From: an uncultured Actinomycetota bacterium
GTDB lineage: Bacteria > Actinomycetota > Acidimicrobiia > Spongiisociales > UBA5794
Assembly (NCBI GenBank): GCA_963808015.1
Contig: CAWEEG010000020.1
Coordinates: forward strand, 1,051 to 65,050
DNA length: 64,000 bases
Direction of reading: 5' to 3'
Positions 1,861-49,241 of this stretch are shown here, piece by piece. The position numbers and the translations under genes are program-made. Position 1 is the first letter of the stretch. Each line of letters opens with the position of its first letter. The notes under the pieces were generated by a model, which did not search any database, was not told where the DNA came from, and saw nothing but the letters and a program-made list of their open reading frames with translations.

Positions 1861-1971
1861 ATTTTAATCCTCGAAATACTACATGTATTCCTGTGGTTAA
1901 AATATTCGCCTTCCTTGATCTCGAACAAAATTGAACATTTTGAAACCGCCTCAATTGATTCAGGTTTCATT

Positions 1972-2736: not shown

Positions 2737-2825
2737 AGCAGTAAGGTTTTAGGCCGTTTTGGAAGAGAGATTTTTCATGAGGTAACTCCTGTCTTGGTGA
2801 AAAGGCAGCAGTGCTGGAATTTCTC

Positions 2826-2960
2826 CAATAAAAAAGCCGTTTGCAAGGAAACGGCTTTTTAGGGTTCTATAAATGATAAGTATGTCGTTCCCTACGCTGG
2901 AATTATCCAGATCAGGTTCAAAGGGTGTAATCTCAGGCGTCTTGCAGCCACCCCGCATGT
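2826..2960 (-). promoter_or_regulatory. TPP (THI-box) riboswitch with intrinsic-terminator expression platform
   Basis: The minus strand of 2884..2956 reads gcggggtggctgcaagacgCCTGAGAttacACCCTTTGAACCTGATCTGGATAATTCCAGCGTAGGGAAcgac, the canonical THI element core. It is followed (plus 2826..2860) by the hairpin GCCGTTT-ccttgc-AAACGGC plus a T-run. Located in the 5-prime leader of thiM. Confidence 0.9.
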
Positions 2961-3118
2961 TAATTTTTTTTATTCTAATCTCTAACAAACAGACAGTGAT
3001 AAGTCAACAATAAATTATATGCATAAATACATCAGAAATAGTATTTTATTTGTAGTATATCCTTATTGTCAGAATCTGATCCCCTGAAAACTGTATTAAT
3101 TAACAGAGATAAACGATG

Positions 3119-4409
3119 CTAAAATTCAGCTGATCGGGATGCCGCTGTATCCGTATCATCGGTTTCCTTGTCTGCGATCTGAAGCGCTTTATCGATGATA
3201 TCGATGGCTTGATCCACCTGTTCCACGGTAATAATCAAGGGCGGAGCGAGGACCAGGTTGTCATACCAGGCCAGCATGTGTAAACCGTGATGCATGCACT
3301 CCATGGAAGTTTTTCCGGTCATCAGCGGTTTTCCGCTGATTTTATCCGCTTCGACATTAAACGGTTCTTTGGTCTTTCGATTTTTTCGATTTCGAAGGCC
3401 CAGAAATGCCCCGGCCCCTGACGTCACCGATACAGGGATGTTTGTCCGCCAGTTCATAAAGCCTGTTTTTCAATGCTGGCTGAGTTTTTGCGGCAATCCG
3501 CTCTCCATCATCCGCCTGTCTCCGCGATCGCCGTCGGCACCGGTGATAAAGCCATGGCATGATAAGCATAGGTATGACCATGGCAAAAGAAGTTATCTTC
3601 AAAGAATCGGCAACCCCCTTGTTGGCGACGGTAATTCCCAGCGGTGTATAGGCTGATGTCGGCTCCCTTTGCCGTAGTCATGATATCCGGCTGGACATCC
3701 CAGATATCCATAGCAAATGCGTGGCCGGTTCTGAACCATCCAGTCATGACTTCATCGGCGATTAACAGCACACCGTTTTCATCACAAATTTTTCTAACTA
3801 ACGGAAAATATTCCGGGGGTGGAACGATACGCCCGTTGGTCCCAACGATCGGCTCAACGATCATGGCGGCTACGTTGCCTTCCTCTTTGATCATATAGTC
3901 CAGATATCTCGCGCACTGGATTTGGCATCCAGGATATTCCAAGGCGAATGGGCAACGGTAGCAGTAAGCGTCCGGTGCGAAAAGAACGCCATCGACCGTG
4001 TACCTGACACTTTCAACCGGCCACCGCCGTGGATCTCCGGTAAAAGCCATACCGGTGGGTGTCGCCCCATGAAAAGAATGATAGCGAGAAATCACCTTGT
4101 AAGCCGGTGCCTTGGATTGCCTGACCATGACCAGCGCACCGTCATTGGCCTCGGTACCACTGGTCAAAAAAGAACTTGTCCAAGCCTTTCGGCATAATGG
4201 ACCGCAACGCTTCAACCGCTTCCACAGCGATCTCAGTGGTAAAACCTGGCGCAATATAGGGCAGTTTTTCAGCTTGCTTCACAATGGCCTCAATAATTGC
4301 CTTGTTTTTTATGGCCCAGATTGGAACACATCAACTGGGATGAAAAATCGAGATACGATTTCCCCTTGGCATCATAGAAATAGACGCCTTCAGCATCAGT
4401 AATTAATGT
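3119..4409 (-). pseudogene. class-III (omega) aminotransferase, multiply frameshifted and 5-prime truncated at the composition break
   Basis: Pieces 4290..4409 (TLITDAEGVYFYDAKGKSYLDFSSQL), 3508..4254 (FHGAT...MIVEPIVGTNG...LLIADEVMTGWFRTGH...DIMTTAKG), 3357..3602 frame (HPCIGDVRGRG) and 3119..3457 (LVLAPPLIITVEQVDQAIDII) together make one PLP aminotransferase in four frames. No start codon lies before the break at ~4409. Confidence 0.7.
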
Positions 4410-5519
4410 CGGCGCGATCCAAGCGTTTTGCCGACTTCCATCGACACGATCGAAGCGGTCTCCGGCGCGGGAATGCAGACGGTCGGCGGTGGTCAGAACG
4501 CCGACGCAGCGTGGGAGCCTCTCCTCGTCGATGTATCGGGGCTGACCGTCGCCGTATTCGCGTTCGACGTGAGTGGACACGGACTTGGCGCATCCCAAGG
4601 CCCGGGCGTCGCGTCTTGGGATCCGGACCGTGCCGAGATCGCTGTAGGGGACGCCCGCGCGATTGCCGATGTGGTCGTGGCAGGCATCCATGGCGGCCTC
4701 GAGTTCTGGCAAGACATTGATCCGCAGTTGGAACCCGTCGCACTGAATCTGGCCTCATGGGGCGTCGACATCGTCTGGGGTCACGGCCCCCACGTCGCAC
4801 AGCCGATATCACTGTCCGAGGCGTACGGCACCCGACCGACGGTGATCGCCACCAGCCTCGGGAACTTCCTCTTCGACCAGCAGACCGAGCCAACGAGTCA
4901 CGGATCGATCCTCGAGGTGCTCGTCGACGGAAGCGGCGTAGCGGCGTGGCGCACCGGCCACAAACACCACGACGATCTGAGAGTTCACTTTGCAGGTTGG
5001 GATCTCCCCATTGGGAATGCGGGCCTCGTTGACGGTGACTGGTGGAACGTGGCCCGCGATCTCCCGTTGGATGCGGTCGACGCGCCAGCAACCGGGTTCC
5101 CGTTTGGAACCGTTCTCGCTGCCTCTGTCGGCGATATCGCGGGCGTCGGAATCGAGACCGTCCTCGTTTCGTATCGCCATCCGCTCAGCGACGCGAATTG
5201 GGATCCGCGACCGATGGCAACCGATACGTCCGGCCGCAGTGCACACATAGGAGTGTTCGAGTCGGACTGGACGCCCGTCTGGATGTCCCGCCGCCCTCCG
5301 CATCCCGTAGGAACCCTCGCTGCTTGTGATGGATCTGCCGCTTTCGGGTACACAACGCTCGATGATCCGACCGTGGTGGCAACCGGGGCTGGCGCCTGGA
5401 ACGGGTTCGGCTTCACACTCGCCCCAGACCTTCCAGGCCACGGCACACCCTCGTGCGCGGACTTCGATCACGACGGTGATCTCGATGCCGTAGTCGTAGA
5501 CCGCTCAACTATCCGTTGA
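4410..5519 (+). CDS. CapA-family (poly-gamma-glutamate synthesis-type metallophosphatase) C-terminal fragment with FG-GAP/VCBS-like tail, N-terminus missing
   Basis: The frame is open from the in-frame TAA at 4404-4406. Contains GAGMQTVGGGQNADAAWEP, DVVVAGIHGG and IVWGHGPHVAQPI (CapA-type motifs), and ends CADFDHDGDLDAVVVD. No plausible start or N-terminal half. Confidence 0.55.
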   Translation, partial: RRDPSVLPTSIDTIEAVSGAGMQTVGGGQNADAAWEPLLVDVSGLTVAVFAFDVSGHGLGASQGPGVASWDPDRAEIAVGDARAIADVVVAGIHGGLEFWQDIDPQLEPVALNLASWGVDIVWGHGPHVAQPISLSEAYGTRPTVIATSLGNFLFDQQTEPTSHGSILEVLVDGSGVAAWRTGHKHHDDLRVHFAGWDLPIGNAGLVDGDWWNVARDLPLDAVDAPATGFPFGTVLAASVGDIAGVGIETVLVSYRHPLSDANWDPRPMATDTSGRSAHIGVFESDWTPVWMSRRPPHPVGTLAACDGSAAFGYTTLDDPTVVATGAGAWNGFGFTLAPDLPGHGTPSCADFDHDGDLDAVVVDRSTIR

Positions 5520-5715
5520 GACGCACCGAGGGGTTGCGTCTGGTTGGGAGGTGGCTGGGGAAACGGTTGGCGCGAGAGATCATCATCGGGTCGATCGACC
5601 GCAGGGGTTGTTGGCGTGACCGCTGAGGCAATTCGCCGTACGGAAGCGGACCTCCATGCCACGGCCCGAGAGATCGTCCCGGTGTGGGAGCTGCTCAGAC
5701 GCGGCGACTCCTCCT

Positions 5716-5846
5716 GGGCCATGGAACCGTTTTACCCCCTCCCGCCTCGCTGGGTTCGGTCAGGTTCGGCTGATCGTGGGTTGTGGAACCGTTTGACCCC
5801 CTCCGCCTCGCTGGGCTCGGCACCTCCCCCCTGAGGGGGAGGAATC
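5716..5846. repeat. interspersed repeat family 1, copy A (two GGAACCGTTTGACCCCCTCCGCCTCGCTGGG units plus hairpin)
   Basis: 5722..5757 and 5783..5819 are direct sub-repeats. 5823..5842 (cctcccccctgagggggagg) is a GC hairpin. Related copies at 16836..16955, 38719..38965 and 56938..57000. Lies between convergent gene ends. Confidence 0.8.
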
Positions 5847-5864
5847 CCAGGAGAGGCCTGGTTC

Positions 5865-7883
5865 TCAGTTGAGGTTGAAGTCGCCGGCCACAGGGAGCCA
5901 ACCCGTTCCAGCGCCTTTCCAGGTGAACTGGGAATCGGCGTTGCCCTGCGTCAAGTCGTGCCGGAAATAGAACACCTGATTCGACGGCCGGAACAAACCC
6001 GGCGTGTCCTCACCATCCACGATCCCCCAGTCACCCGCAACGAATCGGTCACCCGGATCACCGAAGTAGAACTGCCCGTGCGCGACACCGGTCGACAACG
6101 TGTTGCGATAGTAGAAGAACCCCGTCGACTCACGATGCAGACCGACTTCGTCGATCCCGTCGCCATCCCAATCCCCCACCATCGGCTTATCACCCTGGTT
6201 ACCGAACAGGAATGAATAGTCCGCCGCCCCCAAACCGCCGCCATTCTGACCCAACGCGTTGATGATGTAGAACCGAGCCTCCAACGGCCGGTAGATCGAC
6301 AACGTGTCACACCCGTTCCCGTTGAAATCACCCGCAATCGGAACATCACCAGGATTCCCGAAGAAGAACGACACATCCGCAATCCCCTGCGAATTCGAGT
6401 TCCGGAGATACGCAAACCCATCCGACTGGCGATACAACCCCGGTGTGTCCTCCCCATCACAATCCCAGTCCCCCACAAACGGATAATCGCCAGGATCCCC
6501 GTAGTAGAACTCAGACACCACCCCCGCCGTGTTGCGCAGACGCCACATCCCCGATCCGGGATCCACCAACCCCACCGTGTGCGGCACACCGATCTTGATC
6601 GTCACCGTCGCCGTGTTCGACACACCCGAACGCGGGTCCTTCGCTGCGTACCGGAACGAATCCATCAACACCGCCGACCCATCGTGGCGATAGACGAACG
6701 TCCCATCCGTCGAGAACTTGAAACTCGCCGCATGGCTCGGACCCGTCACCAGCTTCGCAGTCAGATCCTCACCATCGGGATCCGAATCGTTCGCCAACAC
6801 CGTCGGACCCGCGAACGTCACACCCGGCCGCACATAGAACGGGCCATCGTCAACGGCCACCGGCGGCCGATTCACCGACTCCCAGTTGCCGTATTTCTCG
6901 TCCCCCTCGTGGTCCGTCAAATGACCCAAATTCGACCCATCCGGATCCACCATCCACAGATCCCAATCCCCATCGGCATCCGACGAAAACAAGATATGAC
7001 GCCCATCCGGCGACCACTCCGGCCAGTACTCATTCGATGTCGTCTTCGTGAGACGCAGAACGCGTGCACCGTTCGAGTCCATCACATAGAGATCGCGAGG
7101 ATTCCCACCCCGGTCCGAAATGAACGCGATCTTCGAACCATCCGGCGACCACGCCGGCATGAGCTCCATCGACGTCGGGCTCTTTGTCAGGTTCGTGACC
7201 CGAGTTCCATTCACACTCATCACGTAGATGTCGTCGGACCCATCCCGATTTGAACGGAACGCGATCGTCGAACCATCCGGCGACCAAGCGGGGTCGTCCT
7301 CGATACCGAGAGCAGTTCCCGGAGTGAGGTTCACCGGGTTGGATCCGTTCGCATCCATCACCCAGATATCGCTCGTCAAGATGCCCAAGGGGCTTCGAGC
7401 GAACACGATTCGCGAGCCGTCGGGCGACCACCTCGGATGGAATTCCGCCTCCTTGCTGTTCGTGAGGTTCTTCAACCCACTGCCGTCCGGAGCTACGACC
7501 CAGATATCGCGGGTGCCCGAGGCAAGGGACACAAAGGTGATTCTCTTTCCATCTGAAGACCAGTCCGGCGACTCCTCCGCCGCCACGAAGTTCGACGTCA
7601 GCTGACTCCACGCACCACCAGCGAAGTCCCGCGTGTAGAGCTCCCCACCACCTTCGGTGGACGTGAACACGATCCTGCCGACCGCGCCGGGCACGGTGGC
7701 ATCCGCAGCTTCCGGCACGACCGACAGACCCCCAACCGTCACAACAACGGCAACCAACAGAACCAGAAGATTGCGCACGATGTCCCCCTTGTCAAGACTC
7801 AGTGCCGATGCACCAATGCTCTCGCCAACAGCCGACACGGCCAGGGGAGAAAGCCCCTTTGGGACCTGATCTGTAGGCTTCAA
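5865..7883 (-). CDS. secreted TolB-like (PD40) beta-propeller / cadherin-like / FG-GAP repeat protein
   Basis: 672 aa. Hydrophobic signal-like segment LLVLLVAVVVTVGGLSVVPEAADA. Repeated WSPDGxxIxFxSxRxGxxDIYVM units. VNRPPVAVDD...ANDSDPDGEDL domain. Four or more C-terminal G(D/N)PGDxPxxGDWDGDG repeats. The true start may be internal (~7790). Confidence 0.75.
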   Translation of the reverse strand: MKPTDQVPKGLSPLAVSAVGESIGASALSLDKGDIVRNLLVLLVAVVVTVGGLSVVPEAADATVPGAVGRIVFTSTEGGGELYTRDFAGGAWSQLTSNFVAAEESPDWSSDGKRITFVSLASGTRDIWVVAPDGSGLKNLTNSKEAEFHPRWSPDGSRIVFARSPLGILTSDIWVMDANGSNPVNLTPGTALGIEDDPAWSPDGSTIAFRSNRDGSDDIYVMSVNGTRVTNLTKSPTSMELMPAWSPDGSKIAFISDRGGNPRDLYVMDSNGARVLRLTKTTSNEYWPEWSPDGRHILFSSDADGDWDLWMVDPDGSNLGHLTDHEGDEKYGNWESVNRPPVAVDDGPFYVRPGVTFAGPTVLANDSDPDGEDLTAKLVTGPSHAASFKFSTDGTFVYRHDGSAVLMDSFRYAAKDPRSGVSNTATVTIKIGVPHTVGLVDPGSGMWRLRNTAGVVSEFYYGDPGDYPFVGDWDCDGEDTPGLYRQSDGFAYLRNSNSQGIADVSFFFGNPGDVPIAGDFNGNGCDTLSIYRPLEARFYIINALGQNGGGLGAADYSFLFGNQGDKPMVGDWDGDGIDEVGLHRESTGFFYYRNTLSTGVAHGQFYFGDPGDRFVAGDWGIVDGEDTPGLFRPSNQVFYFRHDLTQGNADSQFTWKGAGTGWLPVAGDFNLN

Positions 7884-28712: not shown

Positions 28713-28787
28713 CGAGACGCTAGACACGAGACACGAGACACGAGAACAGACACGCGTCGTGCTTGCCTGTGACATCCGGGGTCTCAC
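28713..28787. repeat. repeat family 2 (GAGACNN heptad array), copy 1, mostly one arm
   Basis: cGAGACGctaGACACGAGACACGAGACACGAGAACAGACACG at 28713..28756. A weak complementary arm (ggggtctcac) lies at 28778..28787. Sits between the prfA stop and the prmC start. Confidence 0.7.
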
Positions 28788-32538: not shown

Positions 32539-32705
32539 GTGTGTTGTTGCCCCTTTTCAGGACGAAGGGTCAAACGACCCGGAGATTGGGGACCTCGGAC
32601 AACACGACGGTGATCCGGGTCTTCCTGGAATGCTCCCTCGTACGGCACGCGACACGCGGTCGAGAAGGAGTGGATGGAGCGATTGTAACGGTATTCGCGC
32701 TTAGT

Positions 32706-33845
32706 TCAAGCAGATATGCCAGAAGCGAGACCGAGACTCGAGACGAGAGAGCTTGAGACACGAGACCGAGGGAAGGGTCGGGTCTCGGGTCTTGTGTCTC
32801 GGATCTCGGGTCTGTCCTCGACTACCAGCCCAGGATACTCGAGGACCGCATCGAGCCTCGGCGTCACGGGGCCCGGGAGGTCGGCTTCGATCACGGCGGT
32901 CTCGGGATCCTTCAGACCATGGCCGGTGAGGGTGCACACGATGGGGCCGTCCGGCAGTTCGTCGCGATACTTCAGGATCCCTGCAACACCGGCAGCTGAG
33001 GCAGGCTCGCAGAACACTCCTTCACGGGTGGCCAGGAATCGGTAGGCGTCGAGGATCTCATCGTCGGTGACGGCCTCGATTCGACCGCCGGATTCGTCTC
33101 GGGCCGCGACGGCTCCATCCCACGAGGCCGGGTTGCCGATTCGGATCGCCGTCGCAATCGTCTCGGGTTCGTCCACGATTTCTCCGTACACGATCGGCGC
33201 GGCGCCGGCCGCTTGGAATCCCCACATCAAGGGAGCCTCATCAACATCGGTGTATCCCTGCCAATAGGCGGTGATGTTCCCCGCGTTCCCGACAGGGAGT
33301 GCATGAACCGACGGCGCAGCGCCGAGAGTGTCCACGATCTCCCACGCGGCCGTCTTCTGGCCTGCGATTCGATACGGATTGATGGAGTTGACGAGCGCAA
33401 CGTCGTGGCTTCCGGTCAACTCCAGGACGATCGCAAGAGCATCGTCGAAGCTCCCGTCAATGGGAACAATCGTCGCGCCGTGCACGATCGCCTGAGCCAA
33501 CTTCCCGCGGGCGATCTTGCCGGACGGGATAACCACGATGGACGTGATGCCTGCGCGCTGCGCGTATGCAGCCGCCGACGCCGAGGTGTTCCCGGTCGAC
33601 GCACACGCCACGGCACGGGCTCCATCCTCTACCGCCTTCGACACCGCCAGGGTCATTCCGCGGTCCTTGAACGACCCGGTCGGATTGAGGCCCTCGAACT
33701 TGAGAAACACCTTCCGCTGAACGGCTTTCGAGAGTGCCGGCGCTGGAATGAGCGGCGTGTCGCCTTCGAGGAGGGTCACGACGGGCGTGTCCGGTCCCAC
33801 CGGGAGGCGATCCCGATATGCCTCGATGATGCCTTTGCGGCTCAT
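32706..33845 (-). CDS. thrC: threonine synthase (ORF 3-prime end runs through a repeat element)
   Basis: 379 aa. Contains [18 protein letters not shown] (PLP lysine motif), ASTGNTSAS and VGNAGN. The last ~35 aa ([21 protein letters not shown]...) are encoded by repeat family 2. Confidence 0.9.
32724..32820. repeat. repeat family 2 (inverted GAGACNN / NNGTCTC heptad arrays), copy 2
   Basis: The left arm aGCGAGACCGAGACTCGAGACGAGAGAGCTTGAGACACGAGACCGAG, the loop ggaagg, and the right arm GTCGGGTCTCGGGTCTTGTGTCTCGGATCTCGGGTCTG form a long imperfect hairpin. It overlaps the last ~35 codons of the thrC ORF. Confidence 0.8.
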
Positions 33846-35160: not shown

Positions 35161-36430
35161 TCAGACGTCTCGACGGACGAGGTCCTCGTAGGCCTCTCGC
35201 CGGACCACCTCGCGCGCCATGCCGTCGCGGACGAAAACAACGGGCGGACGGCGAATCATGTTGTAGTTGCTGCCCATCGAATGCCCAGTACACGCCGGTC
35301 ACCGGCGTCGCAAGCACATCCCCGACAGCGAGGTCCTCGGGTACGTCGGCCTCTGCCACGATGACATCGCCCGACTCGCAGTGTTTGCCGACGATCCGCA
35401 CCTTCATCGGCCGATCGGCATCGGTCGCTCTCGGGAGGAACGCTTCGTATCCGCTTCCGTACAGGCTCGGACGCGGGTTGTCGCTCATGCCGCCATCAAC
35501 CGCCACGTACGTTCGTATGCCGGGGATGTCCTTGATCGTGCCCACGGTGTAGAGCGTCACCGCTGCACCCGCGACGATCGACCGTCCGGGTTCGGCGGTC
35601 CACGAGAGAGTCGATTCCCGCGCGTCGCGACATGCCCGAACCACGATATCCGCCCACTCCGTGATCGAAGGAGCCTCCTCACCGGTCACATACGCAACAC
35701 CGAGGCCCCCGCCGATCGAGAACTCGGGGAGATCGAGCGGTACGACGAACCCGGCGAGCACATCAACTGCCCGTCGATACGAGTCCGCGTCGAATACCTG
35801 GCTGCCGATGTGTGCGTGGACACCTTCGAGGGTCATCGCGGTTGACGCTTCGATTCGCGCCACTGCTGCGGAGGCTTCGCCCGACGTCAGGCCGAATCCG
35901 AATTTCGTGTCGGCGATACCCGTCTGGAGGTACTCATGCGTGTGCGCTTCGATCCCGGGAGTGAGTCGCACGAGAACCCTCGGCGGCGGAGCACCGGCTT
36001 CAACAAGCGCCTCGATTCGGTCGATCTCAACGAATGAATCGATCACGATCTGCCCCACGCCGGCGTCGAGCGCCGCCGCGAGTTCGCCGACCGACTTGTT
36101 GTTTCCGTGAAGAACCAGCCGGTCGGCGGGGACCCCGGCGTTGAGAGCCACGAAGAGTTCACCGCCCGTCGCAACGTCGAGCCGCATTCGCTCCTCGTAC
36201 GCCAGCTTGGCCATCGCCGTCGTCATGAACGCCTTCGTGGCGTACGCGACACCTTCACCGAACGCTGAGACCGCCTCGCGACACCGGGACCGCATCTGCT
36301 CTTCGTCGTACACGAACAGCGGCGTTTCAAACCGAGCTGCCAACTCGAGAACGTCCATCCCCCCGATGAACAACCGCCCACCAACGATCTCAGAGTTGTC
36401 GGGGAGAAGAGAACGGGGGATGGGGGTCAT
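35161..36430 (-). CDS. lysA: diaminopimelate decarboxylase, one frame break near 35283
   Basis: Contains TPLFVYDEE, YATKAF (PLP lysine), HAHIGSQ and GKHCESGD. After PVTGVY the frame shifts to GHSMGSNYNMIRRPPVVFVRDG...RRDV-stop at 35161. Confidence 0.92.
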
Positions 36431-36463: not shown

Positions 36464-36552
36464 CCAGACGCCAGACACGAGACAAGAGACACGAGACAGC
36501 GTCGCTGCGCGGGTCTCGGGTCTCGAGTCTCAGGTCTCGAGTCTCTTGTCTC
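36464..36552. repeat. repeat family 2, copy 3 (best hairpin)
   Basis: The left arm CCAGACGCCAGACACGAGACAAGAGACACGAGACA, the spacer gcgtcgctgcgcg, and the right arm GGTCTCGGGTCTCGAGTCTCAGGTCTCGAGTCTCTTGTCTCC. Sits exactly between the argS stop (36555) and the lysA start (36430). Confidence 0.85.
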
Positions 36553-36554
36553 CA

Positions 36555-38322
36555 TCACATTCTTTCTGGGACTTCTATGCCGAGCGTATCGAGGAGGAGG
36601 GCGAGGGTGTGACAGCGTGAGATCAACGAGCGATAGCCAGGAAGCCTGGCGGGCTGGATCCTCCTCGCGCAGGATGTGACACGCCTCATAGAACCGGTTG
36701 AAGTCGGTTGCCAGCTCGTACGCGTACTCGGTGAGCACATTCGGAGCCCGAACCTCCACCGCTCGCTCGATCACCTCGGGCAGCAGCAGAAGCCGCAGGA
36801 TCAGGTCTCGCTCCTGCTTCACCGTCGGGGGGATGATCATGCCCGGTTCGAGACCGAGTTCGGCCGCACGCCGCAGAATCGACGTGGTCCGCACCGCTCC
36901 GTACTGCAGATACGGGCCGGTCTTCCCCTCAAATGACGTGAAGCGGTCAAGATCGAAGCTGTAGTTCGACGTCCGATGATTTGAGAGGTCGCCGAACTTG
37001 AGAGCCCCGAGTCCGACCTGCCTGGCAATCCGCGCTCGCTCTTCTGCTGGATAGTCCTGGGCGATCGCTGCCTCGTCGAGCCGTTTCCGAGCCGCGTCGG
37101 TCACGAGATTCATGAGGTCCGTGAGGCGGAGGATCCCGCCTTCCCTCGTCTTGAATGGTTTCCCATCCGGTCCGTTGACGGTTCCGAACGCGATGTGTTC
37201 GAGTCCGACGTCGTCCGCAGCAAGACCGGACATCCGGGCAACCCTGAAGACCTGTTCGAAATGCAGGCCCTGCCGGGCATCAACGACGTAGAGCACGAGG
37301 TCATAGCCCTCTTCCACCCTCTGCTCGAGGGTCGCCAGATCCGTCGTGGAGTAGAGGTATGAGCCGTCGGAACGGGTCAACAGGAGCGGCGGCATCTCCT
37401 TCTTGTCATCCGGCTGTTCGACGTGGACGATCAGCGCCCCCTCCGACTCGCTGGCGAGATCATCGGCACTCATCAGCCGGTCGACGAGCGGAGCGAGTCG
37501 ATCATGCACCGTGCTCTCACCCCGCCACAGATCGAACTCGATGCCGAGATCTTCGAAGTCCTTCTTCTGTTCGGCGACCGAGACATCGTGATAGTGCCGC
37601 CACAGCGCCAAGTACCCCGGCCGACCGTTCTGCAGGTCGAACGTGGCCTGACGTGCGCGCTCAGCTTCATCGGGGTCGTCCTTGCACCGCTGGACGACGA
37701 CCGGGTACATCTCGGACAGATCGTCGAGCGTGACCGGCGACTCGTCGGGGTACGGACCGGTGAAGGCCGCGTCGAAGTAGGGAAGGTCGGGTTGGCGGCG
37801 CTCCAGTTCGATGATCAGCTGGCCAATCGGCATACCCCAGTCACCCATATGAATGTCGCCCACGACCTCGTGGCCTGCAACACGGAAGAGCCGCTTGAGG
37901 CTCTCACCAATGATCGAGGCGCGGAGATGCCCCACATGCATCGACTTCGACATGTTCGGACCGCCGTAGTCGACGATCACCTTGCGGCGAGGTTCCGGTG
38001 CGGCGATGCCGCTGCGCTCATCGTCCTCCATCATCTGCGCGTAGCGGGCGAGGTACTCGTCGGTGACGATGATGTTGATGAAGCCGGGACCGGCGATGTC
38101 GAGCGACGCGAATGCTGACCGATCGCCGAGGCGGTCGATCACCGACTGCGCCAACTCTCGCGGATTCTTGCCGATCTGCTTCGCAGCAGCGAGGGCGCCA
38201 TTGCATTGGTACTGCGCTAGTTCCGGACGTTGCGATGGAACGACCAGGCCGGCCGACCGGTCCACCCCCGCGGCGTCGAACGCGTCACCGAAGAGTTCGG
38301 AGAGGTCTGAGAGAAGGGACAT
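36555..38322 (-). CDS. argS: arginine--tRNA ligase, one frame break near 36615
   Basis: Contains ANPTGPL-equivalent NMSKSMHVGHLR (HIGH motif region), a class I core, and an anticodon-binding C-terminus. The native end ...TLALLLDTLGIEVPERM-stop is in the frame of ORF 36555..36740. Confidence 0.92.
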
Positions 38323-38377: not shown

Positions 38378-38452
38378 GCCCCAGTAGCTCAGGGGATAGA
38401 GCGCCGGCCTCCGGAGCCGGGAGCGCAGGTTCGATTCCTGCCTGGGGCACCA
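38378..38452 (+). tRNA. tRNA-Arg (anticodon CCG), CCA encoded
   Basis: Hand-folded cloverleaf. Acceptor is GCCCCAG/CTGGGGC. D arm is GCTC-aggggata-GAGC. Anticodon arm is CCGGC-ctCCGga-GCCGG. T arm is GCAGG-ttcgatt-CCTGC. Discriminator is A, followed by CCA. Confidence 0.9.
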
Positions 38453-38718: not shown

Positions 38719-38965
38719 CGATTCCTCCCCCTCCTTCGGATTCCTCCCCTCAGGGGGAGGTGGCGCCGCCAGGCGGCGGAGGGGGTCAAGCGGTTCCACG
38801 ACCCACGAAGACCCGCCGCGCCTGAACGGCTCTCGCACTGGAACGCTTTGACCCCCTCCGTCAGCGGCTCCGCCCGGGTTTTGGACATGATCCGACACAG
38901 GGAACCGTTGCGTCGCGTACGGGGAGGCTCCGCCGCTGCCACCTCCCCCTGAGGGTGAGGAATCG
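38719..38965. repeat. interspersed repeat family 1, copy C: two copies in inverted orientation
   Basis: 38719..38803 is a reverse-oriented copy (GATTCCTCCCCTCAGGGGGAGGTGgcgccgccaggcggCGGAGGGGGTCAAGCGGTTCCACgaccc). 38838..38965 is a forward copy (ctGGAACGcTTTGACCCCCTCCGtcagcgGCTC...CACCTCCCCCTGAGGGtGAGGAATCgg). Confidence 0.75.
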
Positions 38966-44193: not shown

Positions 44194-45413
44194 TGCCATT
44201 CCCACTCGACCTCCACGAACTGGGCACCCCCGCTACCTACACGATCTTCGTGTTCATCGGCATCGGGTTCGGATTCATGCTCGAGCAAGCCGGGTTCGGG
44301 CGCAGCACGAAACTCGCCGCGCAGTTCTACTTCAAGGACTTCGCCATGTTCCGAGTCATGTTCACGGCTGTGATCACCGCCATGGTTCTGACCTTCGGAG
44401 CGGTCGGCATCGGCATCCTCGACTTCAGAAAGGTCTTTGTTCCCGGAACGTATCTGTGGCCGATCGCCATCGGCGGATTCATCCTCGGCGTCGGATTCCT
44501 CATCGGTGGCCTCTGCCCGGGAACGTCGATCGCAGGCGCCGCGACGCTCAAACTCGATGCCATGGTCTTCCTCGCCGGCGTCGTCATCGGTGTGTTCGTC
44601 TTCGGTGAGACGGTCCCCTACTTCATGGGGTTCTGGACAGCCTCGGACTTCGGACGACTCACACTCCCGGAGTGGCTGGGCATCCCAACCGGGGTCATCG
44701 TCTTGTTCATCGTCGTGTTCGCACTCCTGCTGTTCTGGGGTTCCGAAGCGCTCGAGAAGAAGCTCGACGGGACGGACCCGGCCGACGCCCCCAAAGGCCG
44801 CTACATCGGAGCCGGTGTGATTGTCGTCCTCGCTCTTCTTGTTCTCTTGCTCGGCGACCCGACGACCGGCGACTACTGGGATGCGGTGGCGGCCGACGAA
44901 CAGGCACGACTCGACAACCGTGAAGTGCAGATCCACCCGGGAGAGCTTCTCGGATTGATGAACGACACGTTCGTCAATCTCATCATGCTCGACGTACGCG
45001 ACCAGCGGGACTACAACCAGTTCCACCTCAGGGCCGCGCGCCAGACCGACCCGACGCTCGACGCCGTCGAGTCCGCCGCACCCGACCTGATCGGGCTCAC
45101 CCCGAGATCCGTCATCGTCGCGATGAGCAACGATGAACGCGACGCAACCGAGGCGTGGAAGACGCTCGTCGCCAACAACGTCATCAACACGTACATACTC
45201 GAAGGTGGGATCAACGAATGGATCGAAGTCTTCGGAGAAGATGCCGATCCGAGACCGACCACCTATCCGGACCAATTGGCGTTCACGTTCACATCAGCCC
45301 TCGGAGGTCGCTGCGTGGCCTCCGACCCCCACGCCGACGACTTCGAACTCATCTACGAGCCGAAAGTGGTGATCGCCGGCCCCGCAGCCGTAGTAGGCGG
45401 AGGATGCGGATAG
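44193..45413 (+). CDS. YeeE/YedE half-protein fused to a rhodanese-like domain lacking the catalytic cysteine
   Basis: The N-terminal ~200 aa are polytopic with GFLIGGLCPGTS (YeeE-type Cys motif). The C-terminal LIMLDVRDQRDYNQFHLRAA...VIVAMSNDERDATEAW...YILEGGINEW has the rhodanese fold pattern, but Met-Ser replaces the active-site Cys. It ends ...VVGGGCG. Confidence 0.6.
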   Translation: MPFPLDLHELGTPATYTIFVFIGIGFGFMLEQAGFGRSTKLAAQFYFKDFAMFRVMFTAVITAMVLTFGAVGIGILDFRKVFVPGTYLWPIAIGGFILGVGFLIGGLCPGTSIAGAATLKLDAMVFLAGVVIGVFVFGETVPYFMGFWTASDFGRLTLPEWLGIPTGVIVLFIVVFALLLFWGSEALEKKLDGTDPADAPKGRYIGAGVIVVLALLVLLLGDPTTGDYWDAVAADEQARLDNREVQIHPGELLGLMNDTFVNLIMLDVRDQRDYNQFHLRAARQTDPTLDAVESAAPDLIGLTPRSVIVAMSNDERDATEAWKTLVANNVINTYILEGGINEWIEVFGEDADPRPTTYPDQLAFTFTSALGGRCVASDPHADDFELIYEPKVVIAGPAAVVGGGCG

Positions 45414-45420
45414 GAAGAGT

Positions 45421-45526
45421 CAAGACTTGAGACACGAGACATGAGACTTGAGACAAGCGGCAGACCACCTGCCCGGACATCAAGCTGGATTGGTCTCGGA
45501 TCTCGGATCTCGGATCTCGGATCTGG
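45421..45526. repeat. repeat family 2, copy 4
   Basis: The left arm is CAAGACTTGAGACACGAGACATGAGACTTGAGACAAG, followed by a 34-nt spacer. The right arm is GGTCTCGGATCTCGGATCTCGGATCTCGGATCTGG, about four tandem TCTCGGA heptads. Lies between convergent stops (45413 and 45527). Confidence 0.8.
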
Positions 45527-45997
45527 CTATTCGTCGGTAGCGAGCGCTTCCTTGACGAGACGAGCCACCAGCGCCCCATCTAGGTCTTTTCCACTCTTCA
45601 TTACCGCGCCGATTAGTTGGCCGGTCATCTTCGGGTCGGTGGCACCGAGGCCGGCGATGGTCTGGTCGACCAGAGCGCGGGTTGCCGCCTCGTCCAGCTT
45701 CTGAGGGAGGTAGGCAGACAGGTAGTCGATCTCGAACGTGAGCTTGTCGGCTTGCTCTTGCCCTCGTTCACCCAGAGCCTCGTATTCGCCGCGAGCTTTG
45801 CTCATCCGCTTGACGTAGGTTGCGATCGTCGCCAGGTAGAGATCGTCATCAACTTCACCGTCAAACCCCGGTGATGCCTTGGCCACCGAGATCTCCGATT
45901 GGATCTGGCGGATCACGTTGAGGGTTGAGCGATCCCCGCTCTTCATGGCGGACTTCTGCGCCGCGGTCAACTGCTCCTGAATAGTCATCTGTTCCAT
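45527..45997 (-). CDS. GatB/YqeY domain protein
   Basis: (MEQ)MTIQEQLTAAQKSAMKSGDRSTLNVIRQIQSEI...YLPQKLDEAATRALVDQTIAGLGATDPKMTGQLIGAVMK follows the typical YqeY pattern. The start is 45997 or 45988. Confidence 0.8.
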   Translation of the reverse strand: MEQMTIQEQLTAAQKSAMKSGDRSTLNVIRQIQSEISVAKASPGFDGEVDDDLYLATIATYVKRMSKARGEYEALGERGQEQADKLTFEIDYLSAYLPQKLDEAATRALVDQTIAGLGATDPKMTGQLIGAVMKSGKDLDGALVARLVKEALATDE

Positions 45998-47967: not shown

Positions 47968-48682
47968 ATGGATACCGAAGCGTTTGATCAACAAGTCTCC
48001 GACCTCGCCGCCACGCTCGGCGACGCAACTCGTCGCGGGATCTACGTCACGGTTCGTGAGTCTCTTGAACCCGTCACCGCTTCTCAGATTGCTGACCTGT
48101 TCGATATCCACTCAAACGTGGCTCGCCACCACCTCGACCGGCTCGTCGCCGACGGATACCTCCAGGTGACGCGAAAGCGACCAGCGGGGCGGACGGGTCC
48201 CGGAGCGGGTCGTCCGGCGAAGCACTACGAACCGACCCGCAAGAACGTGTCGGTGCAGTTCCCTGCCGCGACGCTACGACCTCCTCACCGAACTGCTCCT
48301 ACGCGTCATCGAGCGAGTTGCGCCCGAGAACGCTGCCGAGATCGCCGACGAGATCGGCCGAGAGTACGGGCGCGAACTCGCGTCAGAGATCGGATTCCCC
48401 GACGAGTCCGGCTACGAAGCCGCAGCAATCGCTGTCGCCAAAGCGCTGATGGGTGTCGGATTCGAAGTCGAAGCTCAGCCGGGCGAACACCGACTCGTGA
48501 CTCGATTCTGCCCGTTCGGGGAGTCCGCGAAGAACCACCCCGTGATCGTTTGCCAACTCGACCAGGGACTCGTCTCCGGCCTACTCGAAGGGACCACGCA
48601 GATCCCCGTCGCAATCGTCAACCCCCACGGCAACGACGAAGGAGACTGCGTAACAAGCTTCGGCGCCGGACCCAACACCTGA
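47968..48682 (+). CDS. ArsR/COG2345-type winged-helix transcriptional regulator, one frame break near 48270
   Basis: The N-terminal wHTH is LGDATRRGIYVTVRESLEPVTASQIADLFDIHSNVARHHLDRLVADGYL. After VQFPA the sense continues in the frame of 48449..48682 (RYDLLTELLLRVIERV...RFCPFGESAKNHPVIVCQLDQGLVSG). Confidence 0.6.
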
Positions 48683-48696
48683 GCCGCCGGTACGGA

Positions 48697-49241
48697 CTAC
48701 TGATTACTGCCTACTGAGCCAACAAACGCGCCGATCTCTTCCTGCGACCGCAGATGCACGCGCCTCAGGTCCGCCCACCTCGGGTCCTCGAACGTCCGCG
48801 CATACCGCTCCTTGACCTCTTGTGGCGGGTCCAGGTCCACAGGAGAATGTTCTCCTCCGGTCTCGGATCAACAATGTTCCGCCACCTCTCCTGGTTGCCG
48901 TTCCAGAGCTTCTCGCCCCGAGAAACCCGTCGGAGTGTCCGCGCAGCAACCCGCCGCATCGTCTGTGAGCGAGGCAGGTCGAGCCACACAACGGTGTCAA
49001 CTCGCGGCCAGACGATGTCCGTGATCCCCTGACCCGTGTAGTTGCCGTCCACAACCCAGGCATCCCCATCGGTGAACGCACGGACCGCATCCTGGAATTC
49101 GTTCGTGGGCAGCTGCGTCCAGCCGGGTTGGTGAAACACCGAGTCCAACTCGAGATGCGGGATACCAAGCGCGATCGATATGCCCCTTGCCACCGTCGAC
49201 TTGCCGGATCCCGGGCTGCCTACAACTGCGATGCGTTCCAC
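48697..49241 (-). CDS. P-loop kinase-like protein (adenylate-kinase / topology-modulation family), one frame break near 48835
   Basis: MERIAVVGSPGSGKSTVA carries the Walker A. The tail VKERYARTFEDPRWADLRRVHLRSQEEIGAFV...stop at 48697 lies in a shifted frame. Confidence 0.6.

What the first reader, a model, noticed from the sequence alone, without database searches (positions are those of the whole stretch)
36464..36552. Interspersed repeat family 2: inverted arrays of GAGACNN heptads forming long hairpins right after stop codons
Four loci (28713..28787, 32724..32820, 36464..36552, 45421..45526) consist of 4-6 tandem 7-nt units (GAGACAC, GAGACAA, GAGACTT and similar). These are followed by a short spacer and then the complementary array (GTCTCGG, GTCTCGA, TCTCGGA x4). 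The result is 35-45 bp imperfect hairpins with a 7-nt periodicity. Each copy begins within a few nt of a stop codon: prfA/prmC, thrC/rho, argS/lysA, and the convergent 45413/45527 pair. Unit number and sequence differ between copies, which suggests slipped-strand expansion. Possible roles are long intrinsic terminators or attenuators between operon genes, protein-binding arrays, or a mobile REP-like family. Heptad-periodic inverted arrays of this kind are not a feature type I can name.
Basis: seen in the sequence. Interest (0 to 1): 0.65.

Follow-up and report, generated by a model that had tools for sequence, protein, structure and literature searches.

The report
Hairpins built from seven-base repeats
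These are real, fast-changing runs of a seven-base unit placed head-to-head between genes so that they fold into long imperfect hairpins; the kind has been reported before in other bacteria but is little studied, and its function is still unproven.

Summary
Four intergenic loci carry tandem GAGACNN heptads. Three have an inverted partner array and fold into long imperfect hairpins; the prfA/prmC locus is essentially one-armed. The source is an uncultured Acidimicrobiia bacterium. Independent assemblies of the same population and its relatives carry the same loci, so the arrays are not assembly artefacts. A lineage-specific pattern scan found 39 more stretches, giving at least 43 distinct copies. 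Each copy has one (GAGAYCC)n arm and one (GAGACAC)n arm, unrelated loops and uncorrelated arm lengths. Strains 99.5% identical differ by whole units, which fits slipped-strand change. More distant relatives have heptad (or octad) hairpins with different units at the same gene junctions. Similar hairpins with many unit sequences occur across phyla, including seven inside a Thermomicrobiales ribosomal-protein operon. The arrays abut stop codons, but also start codons. They lack U-tracts, and their polarity is independent of gene direction, so they are not canonical terminators. The closest precedent is the inverted GGGAATC heptamer repeats of Xanthomonas (Rehm 2015) and heptanucleotide simple sequence repeats in general (Mrazek 2007). 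Verdict: a new member of a known but poorly understood kind. The slippage dynamics are well supported. A role as an RNA hairpin is inferred, not shown.

The parts
36465..36499 (-). argS-lysA locus, 'A' arm. On the + strand it reads CAGACGC CAGACAC GAGACAA GAGACAC GAGACAG. On the gene (-) strand this is the 3' arm (GTCTC-GT/TT).
36500..36512 (-). argS-lysA locus, loop (about 13 nt). It has no similarity to the loops of other copies.
36513..36552 (-). argS-lysA locus, 'Y' arm. On the - strand it reads GAGACAA GAGACTC GAGACCT GAGACTC GAGACCC GAGACCC and starts 2 nt after the argS TGA stop (36555-36557). The lysA ATG is at 36430-36428, so the element fills most of a 124-nt spacer.
   Evidence: (RNA -47.4 kcal/mol, z -3.8).
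32727..32770 (-). thrC-rho locus, 'A' arm. It is irregular in the window because of 1-nt indels relative to L121.
32778..32821 (-). thrC-rho locus, 'Y' arm. On the - strand it reads GGACAGACCC GAGATCC GAGACAC AAGACCC GAGACCC and starts directly after the thrC TAG stop (32822-32824, preceded by G, giving GTAG).
   Evidence: (RNA -45.1 kcal/mol, z -3.1).
32682..32709 (-). Promoter-like TTGAAC-16-TACAAT just downstream of the thrC-rho hairpin, about 145 nt upstream of the rho ATG (32538). It is conserved in relatives. This places the hairpin at the end of the hom-thrC transcription unit.
28714..28754 (-). prfA-prmC locus, one-armed array. On the - strand it reads (GTCTCGT)n and ends 3 nt before the prmC ATG (28710-28708). 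It is 12 nt longer than in the 99.5%-identical contig L121.
   Evidence: (no significant fold).
28781..28786 (-). Single GAGAC unit (- strand) overlapping the prfA TGA stop (TGAGAC). It is the only remnant of a partner arm at this locus.
45422..45456 (-). Convergent-gene locus, 'A' arm. On the + strand it reads AAGACTT GAGACAC GAGACAT GAGACTT GAGACAA and starts 8 nt after the TAG stop (45411-45413) of the + strand membrane/rhodanese-like gene.
45493..45526 (-). Convergent-gene locus, 'Y' arm. On the - strand it reads CAGATCC (GAGATCC)x3 GAGACC and starts directly after the TAG stop (45527-45529) of the - strand YqeY-like gene. Pairing needs G.U wobbles: it is significant as RNA (z -2.5 to -2.9) but not as DNA (z -0.1).
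   Evidence: (100% identical units).

Best explanation
The loci are copies of a dispersed, hypervariable family of heptanucleotide simple sequence repeats (SSRs) arranged as two inverted arrays. The family belongs to an uncultured Acidimicrobiia lineage.

Architecture (shown): read on one strand, each copy is 5'-(GAGAYCC)n - unique loop - (GTCTC-GT/AA/TT)m-3'. Every heptad gives a 5-6 bp helix interrupted by a pyrimidine-pyrimidine mismatch.

Dynamics (shown): unit number changes in whole-unit steps between near-identical strains, independently in the two arms. This is best explained by slipped-strand mispairing. Over longer times the unit sequence itself turns over, while a periodic hairpin persists at the same gene junction.

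Placement (shown): the elements fill the short spacers between coding regions. They usually start at or within a few nt of a stop codon, often GTAG.

Function (inferred): they are transcribed as 3'-UTR or intercistronic RNA. There the imperfect hairpin would act like a REP-type stem-loop, as a barrier to 3' exonucleases and possibly a weak U-tract-less pause or terminator, and it would uncouple neighbouring cistrons. It would not act as an efficient terminator or as a sequence-specific protein site. The heptad periodicity itself would be a mutational signature, not the functional feature.
For: - Reality and non-randomness: and RNA folding z of -2.5 to -3.8.
- Independent assemblies: JGI contigs L121 and L122 are 99.5-99.7% identical to the window and carry the loci. 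NCBI and ENA assemblies of relatives carry them too.
- Family size: 39 further stretches were found with a 23-base lineage-specific pattern, almost all from one JGI study. This gives 43 distinct copies.
- Fixed two-arm architecture: it is also seen in 5 of 5 extra copies that the pattern did not select.
- Slippage:
  - The window and L121 differ by a 12-nt indel in the prfA-prmC array.
  - L123 and L126 (99.5% identical) have 6 versus 3 units.
  - L128 and L129 (99.5% identical) have 2 versus 4 units.
  - Arm lengths are uncorrelated, r = -0.19.
  - Period 7 dominates non-coding tandem arrays in the lineage.
- Turnover of the unit with the hairpin retained at the thrC stop: GAGACNN, AAGAGCA, GTAGCNGA (8 nt), GAGTCGC and CCGGACW in relatives with Rho 100-76% identical. 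The same happens at the YqeY junction.
- Adjacency to stops: 14 of 17 gene ends abutting the 'Y' arm and 11 of 12 abutting the 'A' arm lie within -9 to +12 nt. Across phyla, 26 of 48 pairs have an ORF end at a boundary, against 10.5% at random positions.
- Constraint on the pairing core: adjacent units differ at 3% of core positions and 37% of spacer positions.
- RNA rather than DNA structure at 45422-45526: the fold is significant only with G.U pairs.
- The thrC-rho hairpin sits at an operon end, upstream of a conserved rho promoter.
Against: - No expression or 3'-end data exist, so the RNA role is inference by analogy.
- Polarity of the element is independent of the direction of the flanking genes: 6 tandem contexts have one polarity and 4 the other. 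A strand-specific RNA role is therefore not indicated.
- Up to 10 of 26 contexts are divergent, next to start codons. A 3'-end hairpin role makes no sense there.
- In-situ slippage does not explain why 43 loci share the same two unit types.
- Arms are often unbalanced (up to 13 versus 5 units), so much of an array cannot pair.
- The core-versus-spacer contrast is inflated by the way arrays were detected: cores had to match 4 of 5 positions.
Confidence: 0.5

Rival explanations
1. The elements have no function. They are selfish or neutral by-products of a general 7-nt slippage bias, plus copying between the arms of pre-existing hairpins (quasi-palindrome template switching). They are tolerated wherever they do not disrupt coding sequence, so they expand until they hit stop or start codons.
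For: - Hypervariability between 99.5%-identical strains.
- Uncorrelated and unbalanced arms.
- Presence in every type of intergenic context.
- Many unrelated unit sequences in many phyla.
- Elements fill whole spacers.
- Mrazek 2007 (as cited in PMC4679880) concluded that long SSRs with 5-11 nt units may simply reflect a tendency to expand. Rehm 2015 (PMC4692102) found no regulatory effect for the Xanthomonas heptamers.
Against: - A hairpin persists at the thrC stop in lineages as far as Rho 76% identical, despite complete unit turnover.
- The 5-nt core is conserved against variable spacers.
- The same two unit types recur at 43 loci.
- Cross-phylum enrichment at stop codons is about 5-fold.
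Confidence: 0.25
2. It is a REP/REPIN-like mobile hairpin family. It would be spread as single-stranded DNA by a strand-specific HUH (RAYT-type) or other transposase that recognises a GTAG foot plus an imperfect hairpin. Slippage would then only modify the copies afterwards.
For: - At least 43 copies share unit types and a fixed two-arm polarity.
- GTAG lies within 31 nt of the 5' foot in 18 of 36 copies and CTAC at the 3' foot in 14 of 36, against about 6% background. TAG stops next to arrays are preceded by G in 13 of 14 cases, against 26 of 56 elsewhere.
- Elements were inserted into formerly overlapping stop/start junctions (argS-lysA, prfA-prmC), with TGA present on both sides of the insert.
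- Polarity is opposite at the same junction in L121 and L123.
- Orientation is independent of genes.
Against: - Loops and total lengths are unrelated between copies, unlike REP or REPIN populations.
- There are no conserved termini beyond the heptads.
- GTAG is absent from half of the copies, including the flagged argS locus.
- tblastn with E. coli RayT found nothing in about 520 kb of lineage DNA. This is a weak negative.
- Other unit types at orthologous sites would each need their own family.
Confidence: 0.15
3. The arrays are binding sites on double-stranded DNA for a protein that reads contiguous 7-bp units in direct and inverted orientation. A known example is the omega repressor of plasmid pSM19035, which binds WATCACW heptads. 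They could also be phase-variable promoter spacers, like the 7-bp repeats of the H. influenzae hmw promoters.
For: - The 5-bp core is conserved with free 2-bp spacers.
- Arrays lie in both orientations, and some are in divergent (promoter) regions.
- Arm lengths do not need to match.
- Heptad operator arrays are an established binding mode (own knowledge; heptad repeats in promoters are mentioned in papers listed).
Against: - Orthologous junctions in relatives carry quite different units, and one genome carries several unit types. No single recognition sequence is therefore conserved.
- Most copies lie at gene 3' ends, not promoters.
- No candidate protein is known.
Confidence: 0.07
4. They are efficient intrinsic terminators or attenuators between operon genes.
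For: - Strong hairpins lie directly after stop codons.
- The thrC-rho copy lies at the end of a transcription unit, before the rho promoter.
- Actinobacterial terminators are often described as lacking a U-tract (own knowledge).
Against: - There is no U-tract, and terminator-like sites are not enriched (10 found, 10.3 expected).
- The copies between argS-lysA and prfA-prmC split gene pairs that overlap in relatives. No recognisable new promoter follows.
- Comparable hairpins of -35 to -81 kcal/mol sit at seven junctions inside an essential S10/spc ribosomal-protein operon.
- Some copies are in divergent contexts.
Confidence: 0.08
5. It is an assembly artefact (collapsed or expanded repeats) or a translated repeat.
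For: The window has single-base indel differences relative to L121 that make ORFs run through the arrays.
Against: - The same loci, with the same architecture, occur in independent JGI, ENA and NCBI assemblies from several samples.
- In L121 the genes end before the arrays.
- A period of 7 is incompatible with a fixed reading frame.
Confidence: 0.01

Closest known systems
Inverted pairs of GGGAATC heptameric SSRs in Xanthomonas campestris / X. axonopodis (Rehm et al. 2015, PMC4692102)
   Same: - Tandem 7-nt units with a conserved core and variable positions.
- Hundreds of intergenic arrays per genome.
- 70-75 cases per genome of two arrays in convergent orientation on opposite strands that can form stem-loops.
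- Located close to ORF ends.
- The same gene junctions are occupied in related species, but with different length and sequence.
- Function unknown.
   Different: - The unit is G-rich and forms G-quadruplexes. GAGACNN has no G-tracts.
- The organism is a gammaproteobacterium.
- The fixed two-arm asymmetry with a mismatch in every heptad was not described there.
- Replacement of the unit by unrelated units at orthologous junctions was not described there.
Long simple sequence repeats with 5-11 nt units, heptanucleotides being the most abundant (Mrazek et al. 2007, as summarised in PMC4679880 and PMC4692102; Mrazek and Huang 2014, PMC4060949)
   Same: - Tandem heptads, mostly intergenic.
- Found in free-living bacteria, including Actinobacteria.
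- Length polymorphism attributed to polymerase slippage.
   Different: Those surveys treat single arrays. The inverted, hairpin-forming arrangement and the adjacency to stop codons are not part of the description (nothing of this kind was found in PMC4060949).
Other heptamer repeats: TAACTGA direct repeats of Beggiatoaceae, cyanobacteria and Bacteroidetes (MacGregor 2015, PMC4679880), and cyanobacterial STRR heptamers (Calothrix, cited in PMC4692102)
   Same: Genome-wide families of one tandem heptamer in intergenic spacers, with a patchy phylogenetic distribution.
   Different: TAACTGA sets are direct repeats, with 1 inverted case among 170 sets. They lie mostly just upstream of start codons, in one orientation relative to the gene, and are not hairpins.
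REP / BIME / REPIN elements and their RAYT transposases (PMC3333891)
   Same: - Tens to hundreds of extragenic imperfect palindromes, often at gene 3' ends and inside operons.
- A GTAG tetranucleotide at the hairpin foot (seen here in about half of the copies).
- Proposed roles as mRNA stabilisers.
   Different: - REP copies share one 20-40 nt sequence, including the loop region.
- Here only the heptad units are shared. Loops are unrelated and arm lengths vary from 3 to 13 units.
- No RAYT was found in the DNA sampled.
Omega repressor operators of plasmid pSM19035: contiguous 7-bp WATCACW heptads in direct and inverted orientation (own knowledge)
   Same: Contiguous 7-bp units with a conserved core, in both direct and inverted orientation.
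   Different: Those are a few promoter-proximal operators for one known protein. Here there are dozens of chromosomal copies, mostly at gene ends, and the unit is not conserved between relatives.
U-tract-less ('I-shaped') intrinsic terminators proposed for Actinobacteria (own knowledge)
   Same: GC-rich hairpins after stop codons without a U-tail, in an actinobacterial lineage.
   Different: Those are unique, non-repetitive hairpins at operon ends. These are periodic, dispersed, hypervariable, and also lie inside operons and in divergent spacers.

Membership tests
Heptanucleotide simple sequence repeat (long SSR, 5-11 nt unit) | Head-to-tail iteration of one 7-nt unit, at least 3 copies | tested here: met
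   Tandem Repeats Finder reports period 7 with 4.4-6.7 copies at all four loci. Across the family there are 3-13 units per arm.
Heptanucleotide simple sequence repeat (long SSR, 5-11 nt unit) | Length polymorphism in whole units between close relatives (slippage) | tested here: met
   L123 versus L126 have 6 versus 3 units, and L128 versus L129 have 2 versus 4 units, each pair at 99.5% overall identity. The window and L121 differ by a 12-nt indel.
Inverted heptamer-SSR pairs (Xanthomonas type, PMC4692102) | Two arrays of the same heptamer core in convergent orientation within one intergenic spacer, able to form a stem-loop | tested here: met
   Met at three of the four window loci and in 43 family members. 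Not met at 28714-28754.
Inverted heptamer-SSR pairs (Xanthomonas type, PMC4692102) | GGGAATC-type G-rich unit with G-quadruplex potential | tested here: not met
   The unit is GAGAC plus 2 nt and has no G-tracts. It is the same kind of element but not the same sequence family.
REP / REPIN | Conserved tetranucleotide (GTAG) at the 5' foot of the hairpin | tested here: inconclusive
   GTAG is present in 18 of 36 copies and CTAC in 14 of 36, against about 6% background. It is absent from the flagged argS locus. It partly coincides with TAG stop codons.
REP / REPIN | Copies share one full-length palindromic sequence | tested here: not met
   Loops and lengths are unrelated among the 39 stretches. 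Only the heptads are shared.
REP / REPIN | Cognate RAYT (Y1 HUH transposase) gene in the genome, flanked by the repeats | tested here: inconclusive
   tblastn with E. coli RayT against about 520 kb of lineage DNA gave no hit below E = 0.9. The sample is a fraction of a genome and a single-sequence search has low sensitivity.
Canonical intrinsic terminator | GC-rich stem-loop followed by a U-tract | tested here: not met
   No T-run follows any of the hairpins. The terminator scan gives 10 sites against 10.3 expected, and its hits inside the arrays are sub-hairpins.
Canonical intrinsic terminator | Located at the ends of transcription units only | tested here: not met
   Copies lie between genes that overlap in relatives (argS-lysA, prfA-prmC) and in divergent spacers. 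Analogous hairpins lie inside an S10/spc operon.
MITE | Terminal inverted repeats, target-site duplication and a conserved internal sequence | tested here: not met
   There is no conserved internal sequence and no termini apart from the heptads. A possible TGA duplication at two junctions can also be explained by selection to keep both the stop and the start.
Any curated RNA family (Rfam 15) | Match to a covariance model | tested here: not met
   There is no match at the loci at gathering thresholds or at E <= 1.
Heptad operator array of a ribbon-helix-helix protein (omega type) | Contiguous 7-bp units in direct and inverted orientation | tested here: met
   This is an architectural resemblance only.
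Heptad operator array of a ribbon-helix-helix protein (omega type) | A cognate protein and a recognition sequence conserved wherever the system is present | tested here: not met
   Orthologous junctions in relatives carry different units. The protein part cannot be tested with these tools.

The most novel reading that the evidence does not exclude
Heptad-periodic hairpins may be a cross-phylum class of actively generated elements, not passive microsatellites. A strand-specific mechanism (an unrecognised single-strand DNA transposase or nickase, or templated repeat addition) would seed and extend them at stop-codon-proximal sites. The imperfect periodic stem, 5-6 bp plus one mismatch per 7 nt, would be the selected feature. 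It could serve as a length-tunable insulator between cistrons that escapes both palindrome-cleaving nucleases and RNase III.

The evidence does not exclude this:
- 43 copies share one fixed asymmetric two-arm design although their loops are unrelated.
- Polarity flips at one junction between relatives.
- The core is conserved.
- GTAG...CTAC feet are enriched.
- The same architecture occupies seven junctions of a ribosomal-protein operon in Chloroflexota.
Probability: 0.12. Interest if true: 0.8.

Novelty: new member of a known kind. Interest (0 to 1): 0.5.

Why it matters
Heptanucleotide repeats are the commonest long microsatellites in free-living bacteria, yet nobody knows why the period is seven or what the arrays do.

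This lineage offers a clean natural experiment:
- dozens of copies with one design;
- unit-number differences between strains that are 99.5% identical;
- complete replacement of the unit at fixed gene junctions over modest divergence;
- insertions that split formerly overlapping, translationally coupled gene pairs.

If the hairpins affect mRNA stability or cistron coupling, they would be a fast-evolving, length-tunable layer of gene-expression variation in uncultured Actinobacteria and, judging by the Thermomicrobiales operon, well beyond them. If they do nothing, they are a striking example of how far selfish slippage can fill compact genomes, even inside ribosomal-protein operons.

Practically, they break ORF calling, as in this window, and they are hotspots for assembly and indel errors.

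Tried and rejected
- **Rfam.** Nothing at the loci at gathering thresholds or at E <= 1.
- **Canonical terminator scan.** No enrichment and no U-tracts.
- **Translated-repeat reading.** The window ORFs that run through the arrays result from 1-nt indels relative to L121. Rejected.
- **Polarity tied to transcription.** Tested with a home-made codon-usage gene caller trained on called genes; it reproduced the L121 calls. Gene ends abut the Y arm 17 times and the A arm 12 times, and tandem contexts split 6 to 4. Rejected.
- **Polarity tied to replication direction.** Three contigs with two copies are concordant and two are discordant, and the window's three paired loci are concordant. Not supported, but numbers are small.
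- **Co-expansion of the two arms.** Unit numbers are uncorrelated, r = -0.19. Rejected.
- **Strand-specific G.U signature.**
  - GAGAT units are enriched in the Y arm, but among copies not selected by the search pattern the contrast is only 24% versus 8% (p = 0.054). It may reflect hitch-hiking of the GAGATCC unit. Left as suggestive.
  - In the Thermomicrobiales operon there are 19 sense and 11 antisense G.U pairs. Not decisive.
- **RAYT search.** tblastn with E. coli RayT gave no hit. This is a weak negative.
- **Genome-wide scan for 4 x GAGACNN.** These loci also carry arrays of many other units. The hits are therefore read as instances of generic heptad SSRs and not as one GAGAC family.
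- **Type IIS or nickase sites.** GTCTC and GAGTC (the cores of two of the units seen) are type IIS or nicking-enzyme sites. Known cut distances do not give a 7-nt period and other units are not such sites. Not pursued.
Full report
**1. What is in the window**

Reading the four loci confirms runs of 7-nt units with a GAGAC core on the + strand. At three loci these are followed by runs with a GTCTC core.
- GAGACNNGAGAC with up to 1 mismatch occurs 27 times in the window. Dinucleotide-preserving shuffles give a mean of 9.2 and a maximum of 17. 23 of the 27 matches lie in the four loci.
- Tandem Repeats Finder reports period-7 arrays of 4.4-6.7 copies at each locus.
- As RNA, loci 36465-36552, 32727-32821 and 45422-45526 fold into long interrupted hairpins of -43.6 to -47.4 kcal/mol. 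Their z-scores are -2.5 to -3.8 against shuffles.
- Locus 28714-28754 is different. It has one array and a single partner unit, and it does not fold better than shuffles (z 0.04).
- As DNA, only the first two hairpins are significant. The 45422-45526 hairpin depends on G.U wobbles.

**2. Gene context, and a warning about the window**

The window's ORFs appear to run through the arrays.
- A JGI metagenome contig (L121, Ga0316197_10001186) is 99.5% identical to the window over 12.1 kb.
- The window has single-base insertions relative to L121 at 36614, 35601-35624, 35288, 34127 and 32837. These frameshift argS, lysA, hom and thrC.
- In L121 the genes are ArgS (588 aa), LysA, Hom, ThrC (340 aa), Rho, L31, DUF1385, RF-1, PrmC and Sua5 (Pfam hits).
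- With the correct frames, the arrays start 2 nt after the argS TGA, directly after the thrC TAG, and overlapping the prfA TGA.
- The fourth element exactly fills the space between two convergent TAG stops, 45411-45413 and 45527-45529.

Rho homologues name the lineage as uncultured Acidimicrobiia.

**3. More copies, and the family's design**

*Search.* All four window loci share GAGACACGAGAC on one arm, and three of them GGTCTCGG on the other. A metagenome scan for GAGACACGAGACN{10,40}GGTCTCGGNTCT returned 39 stretches. Almost all come from the JGI study that also holds the window's population. With relaxed detection there are 43 distinct copies.

*The two arms.* Every copy has two kinds of arm.
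- The 'Y' arm has cores GAGAC (120) or GAGAT (65). Its spacers are CC in 63% of units, otherwise TC, CT or TT.
- The 'A' arm, read on the other strand, has core GAGAC. Its spacers are AC in 60% of units, otherwise AA, AT or TT.
- Five extra copies that the pattern did not select show the same design.
- On the Y strand each heptad therefore gives 5-6 base pairs plus one pyrimidine-pyrimidine mismatch.

*Loops and lengths.*
- Loops are 1-30 nt long and unrelated between copies.
- The Y arm has 3-13 units and the A arm 3-9. The two counts are uncorrelated, r = -0.19.

*Core versus spacer.* Adjacent interior units differ at 3% of core positions and at 37% of spacer positions. The detection rule caps the core value at 20%, so the contrast is real but inflated.

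**4. Dynamics**

Near-identical strains differ in whole units.
- L123 and L126 are 99.5% identical. They have 6 versus 3 units in one arm at argS-lysA.
- L128 and L129 are 99.5% identical. They have 2 versus 4 units at the YqeY junction.
- The window has 12 nt more than L121 at prfA-prmC.

At greater distance the unit itself changes, but a periodic hairpin stays at the same junction. Directly after the thrC stop the relatives carry:
- GAGACNN in the window and in relatives with Rho at least 96% identical;
- (AAGAGCA)~10 with inverted TGCTCTT at Rho 92%;
- an 8-nt unit GTAGCNGA with its complement at Rho 88%;
- GAGTCGC / GCGACTC at Rho 83%;
- CCGGACW / TCCGGTA at Rho 76%;
- a plain hairpin at Rho 81%.

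Other observations:
- A promoter-like TTGAAC-16-TACAAT follows the thrC-rho hairpin and is conserved in relatives. The hairpin therefore marks the end of the hom-thrC unit, upstream of the rho promoter.
- argS-lysA and prfA-prmC overlap or abut in the more distant relatives. The elements there are insertions into formerly coupled gene pairs.
- At argS-lysA the polarity of the element is opposite in L121 and L123.
- In some relatives the same junctions are occupied or interrupted by a different, G-rich REP-like element.

**5. Where the copies sit**

I used a simple codon-usage gene caller that reproduced the L121 gene calls. Results:
- 26 copies have both flanks resolved: 6 tandem with the Y strand as sense, 4 tandem with the A strand as sense, 6 convergent, and up to 10 divergent. 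Several of the divergent calls rest on weak gene predictions.
- Gene ends abut the Y arm 17 times and the A arm 12 times, nearly always within -9 to +12 nt.
- Polarity is therefore independent of transcription direction, and the elements are not restricted to gene 3' ends.

GTAG and CTAC:
- GTAG occurs within 31 nt of the Y-arm foot in 18 of 36 copies. CTAC occurs at the other foot in 14 of 36. Background is about 6%.
- TAG stops beside arrays are preceded by G in 13 of 14 cases, against 26 of 56 elsewhere.

Outer arrays of other heptads that contain TAG (GTAGTCA, GTAGCAA) are often nested around the GAGAC arrays.

**6. The kind is general**

- In those 8-kb loci, inverted period-7 arrays with many other unit sequences are common.
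- The clearest case is a Thermomicrobiales MAG (L015). Seven junctions of the S10/spc ribosomal-protein operon carry heptad hairpins of -35 to -81 kcal/mol. Each starts 0-3 nt after, or overlapping, a stop codon and ends before the next ribosome-binding site. Six different units are used.
- Across the 120 loci, 26 of 48 inverted period-7 pairs have an ORF of at least 100 codons ending within -12 to +15 nt of a boundary, against 10.5% at random positions.
- In 524 kb of lineage DNA, period 7 accounts for 97 non-coding arrays, plus 11 of period 14, against 12 of all other periods. This figure is biased by the pattern-selected loci.

**7. What is known**

- Rehm et al. 2015 (PMC4692102) describe about 185 GGGAATC heptamer arrays per Xanthomonas genome. 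In 70-75 cases two arrays lie in convergent orientation and can form stem-loops. They lie near ORF ends and at the same junctions in two species, with different length and sequence. No regulatory role was found.
- That paper and MacGregor 2015 (PMC4679880) cite Mrazek 2007. It found that heptanucleotides are the most abundant long SSRs in prokaryotes and suggested a link to polymerase slippage.
- I found no description of the GAGAC family, of unit replacement at fixed junctions, of the asymmetric two-arm design, or of such hairpins inside ribosomal-protein operons.
- No Rfam family matches.

**8. Interpretation**

*Shown:*
- The family is real, dispersed and hypervariable, and it is built from inverted heptad SSRs.
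- Length changes in whole units.
- The hairpin persists while the unit turns over.
- The elements abut coding sequences.

*Inferred:* the arrays grow and shrink by slipped-strand mispairing. The transcribed hairpin behaves like a REP-type intercistronic or 3'-UTR stem-loop, not like an efficient terminator.

*Evidence against efficient termination:*
- There is no U-tract.
- Elements were inserted into formerly coupled gene pairs.
- Some copies lie in divergent contexts.
- Comparable hairpins sit inside the ribosomal-protein operon.

*Unexplained:* why 43 loci share the same two unit types and the same asymmetric pairing. This feature keeps two rivals alive.
- A mobile-element (REP/RAYT-like) explanation. 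Against it stand the unrelated loops and the lack of a RayT homologue in the DNA sampled (a weak negative).
- A protein-binding explanation. Against it stands the lack of unit conservation between relatives.

A purely neutral origin cannot be excluded.

**9. Verdict**

- The feature is a new member of a known but poorly understood kind.
- Interest is moderate. It is not categorically new, but the lineage is an unusually informative system for an open question: why heptads, and what they do.

Noticed in passing
window 36614, 35601-35624, 35288, 34127, 32837, 32750/32733: The window has single-base insertions or deletions relative to the 99.5%-identical JGI contig L121. These frameshift argS, lysA, hom and thrC. 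They are either assembly (homopolymer-type) errors or real pseudogenisation. They make the ORFs appear to run through the repeats.
   Followed up: partly
window 38720-38870; also L123-L127 and L130 intergenic regions: There is a second, G-rich REP-like hairpin element (…cctcccc…ggggagg…, with arms 38777-38798 / 38839-38860). Position 38722-38763 gives a sub-threshold match to the Rfam family whalefall-1 (25.3 bits, E 0.007). In relatives this element occupies or interrupts the same argS-lysA and prfA-prmC junctions as the heptad hairpins.
   Followed up: partly
L015 (Thermomicrobiales MAG DATBFX010000377), 499-7699: The S10/spc ribosomal-protein operon has seven intercistronic heptad-periodic hairpins. 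Units are AGTGGCA, CCGGTAG (twice), GGCGGGA, AGTGACA, AGTCTCA and CGAGCTT, with folds of -35 to -81 kcal/mol. Each lies directly after a stop codon and before the next ribosome-binding site.
   Followed up: partly
L121-L132, junction after the thrC stop; L128/L129/L125 YqeY junction: Orthologous junctions keep a periodic hairpin, but the unit is replaced: GAGACNN, AAGAGCA, GTAGCNGA (8 nt), GAGTCGC, CCGGACW, TACCAGC. L125 has a one-armed (GAGACCC)x9 array.
   Followed up: yes
window 48691-48717: A short one-armed heptad array (GTACGGA CTACTGA TTACTGC CTACTGA) lies just after a TGA stop at 48680-48682. The unit resembles the TAACTGA repeats described in Beggiatoaceae and cyanobacteria.
   Followed up: no
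L155, L151, L157, L169, L143, L148, L137, L139: Hairpins are nested. Outer inverted arrays of other heptads, most of which contain TAG (GTAGCAA/TTGCTAC and GTAGTCA; also AAGAGCA/TGCTCTT), surround the inner GAGAC arrays. Because 7 is not a multiple of 3, three such units place a stop codon in all three frames.
   Followed up: partly
window 32682-32709 (- strand): A promoter-like TTGAAC-16-TACAAT lies about 145 nt upstream of the rho ATG. It is conserved in all close relatives and recognisable in distant ones. It is probably the rho promoter, with a long leader.
   Followed up: partly
window 2871-2965 (-) and 38378-38449 (+): A TPP riboswitch (57.9 bits) and a tRNA gene (69.4 bits) were found by Rfam. 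They are unrelated to the finding.
   Followed up: no
window 1803-1960: An AT-rich stretch has a 44-nt inverted repeat (80% complementary, 70 nt apart) that encloses a second 27-nt inverted repeat. Its nature is unknown.
   Followed up: no
L030 and L012 (MAG CBFDAN01, 'uncultured bacterium SRR26215685_metabat2_9'): The GTDB species representative closest to the window carries the orthologous argS-lysA GAGAC hairpin, plus an adjacent 8-nt (GTAGCGGA)x3 array. It could serve for a whole-genome census.
   Followed up: no
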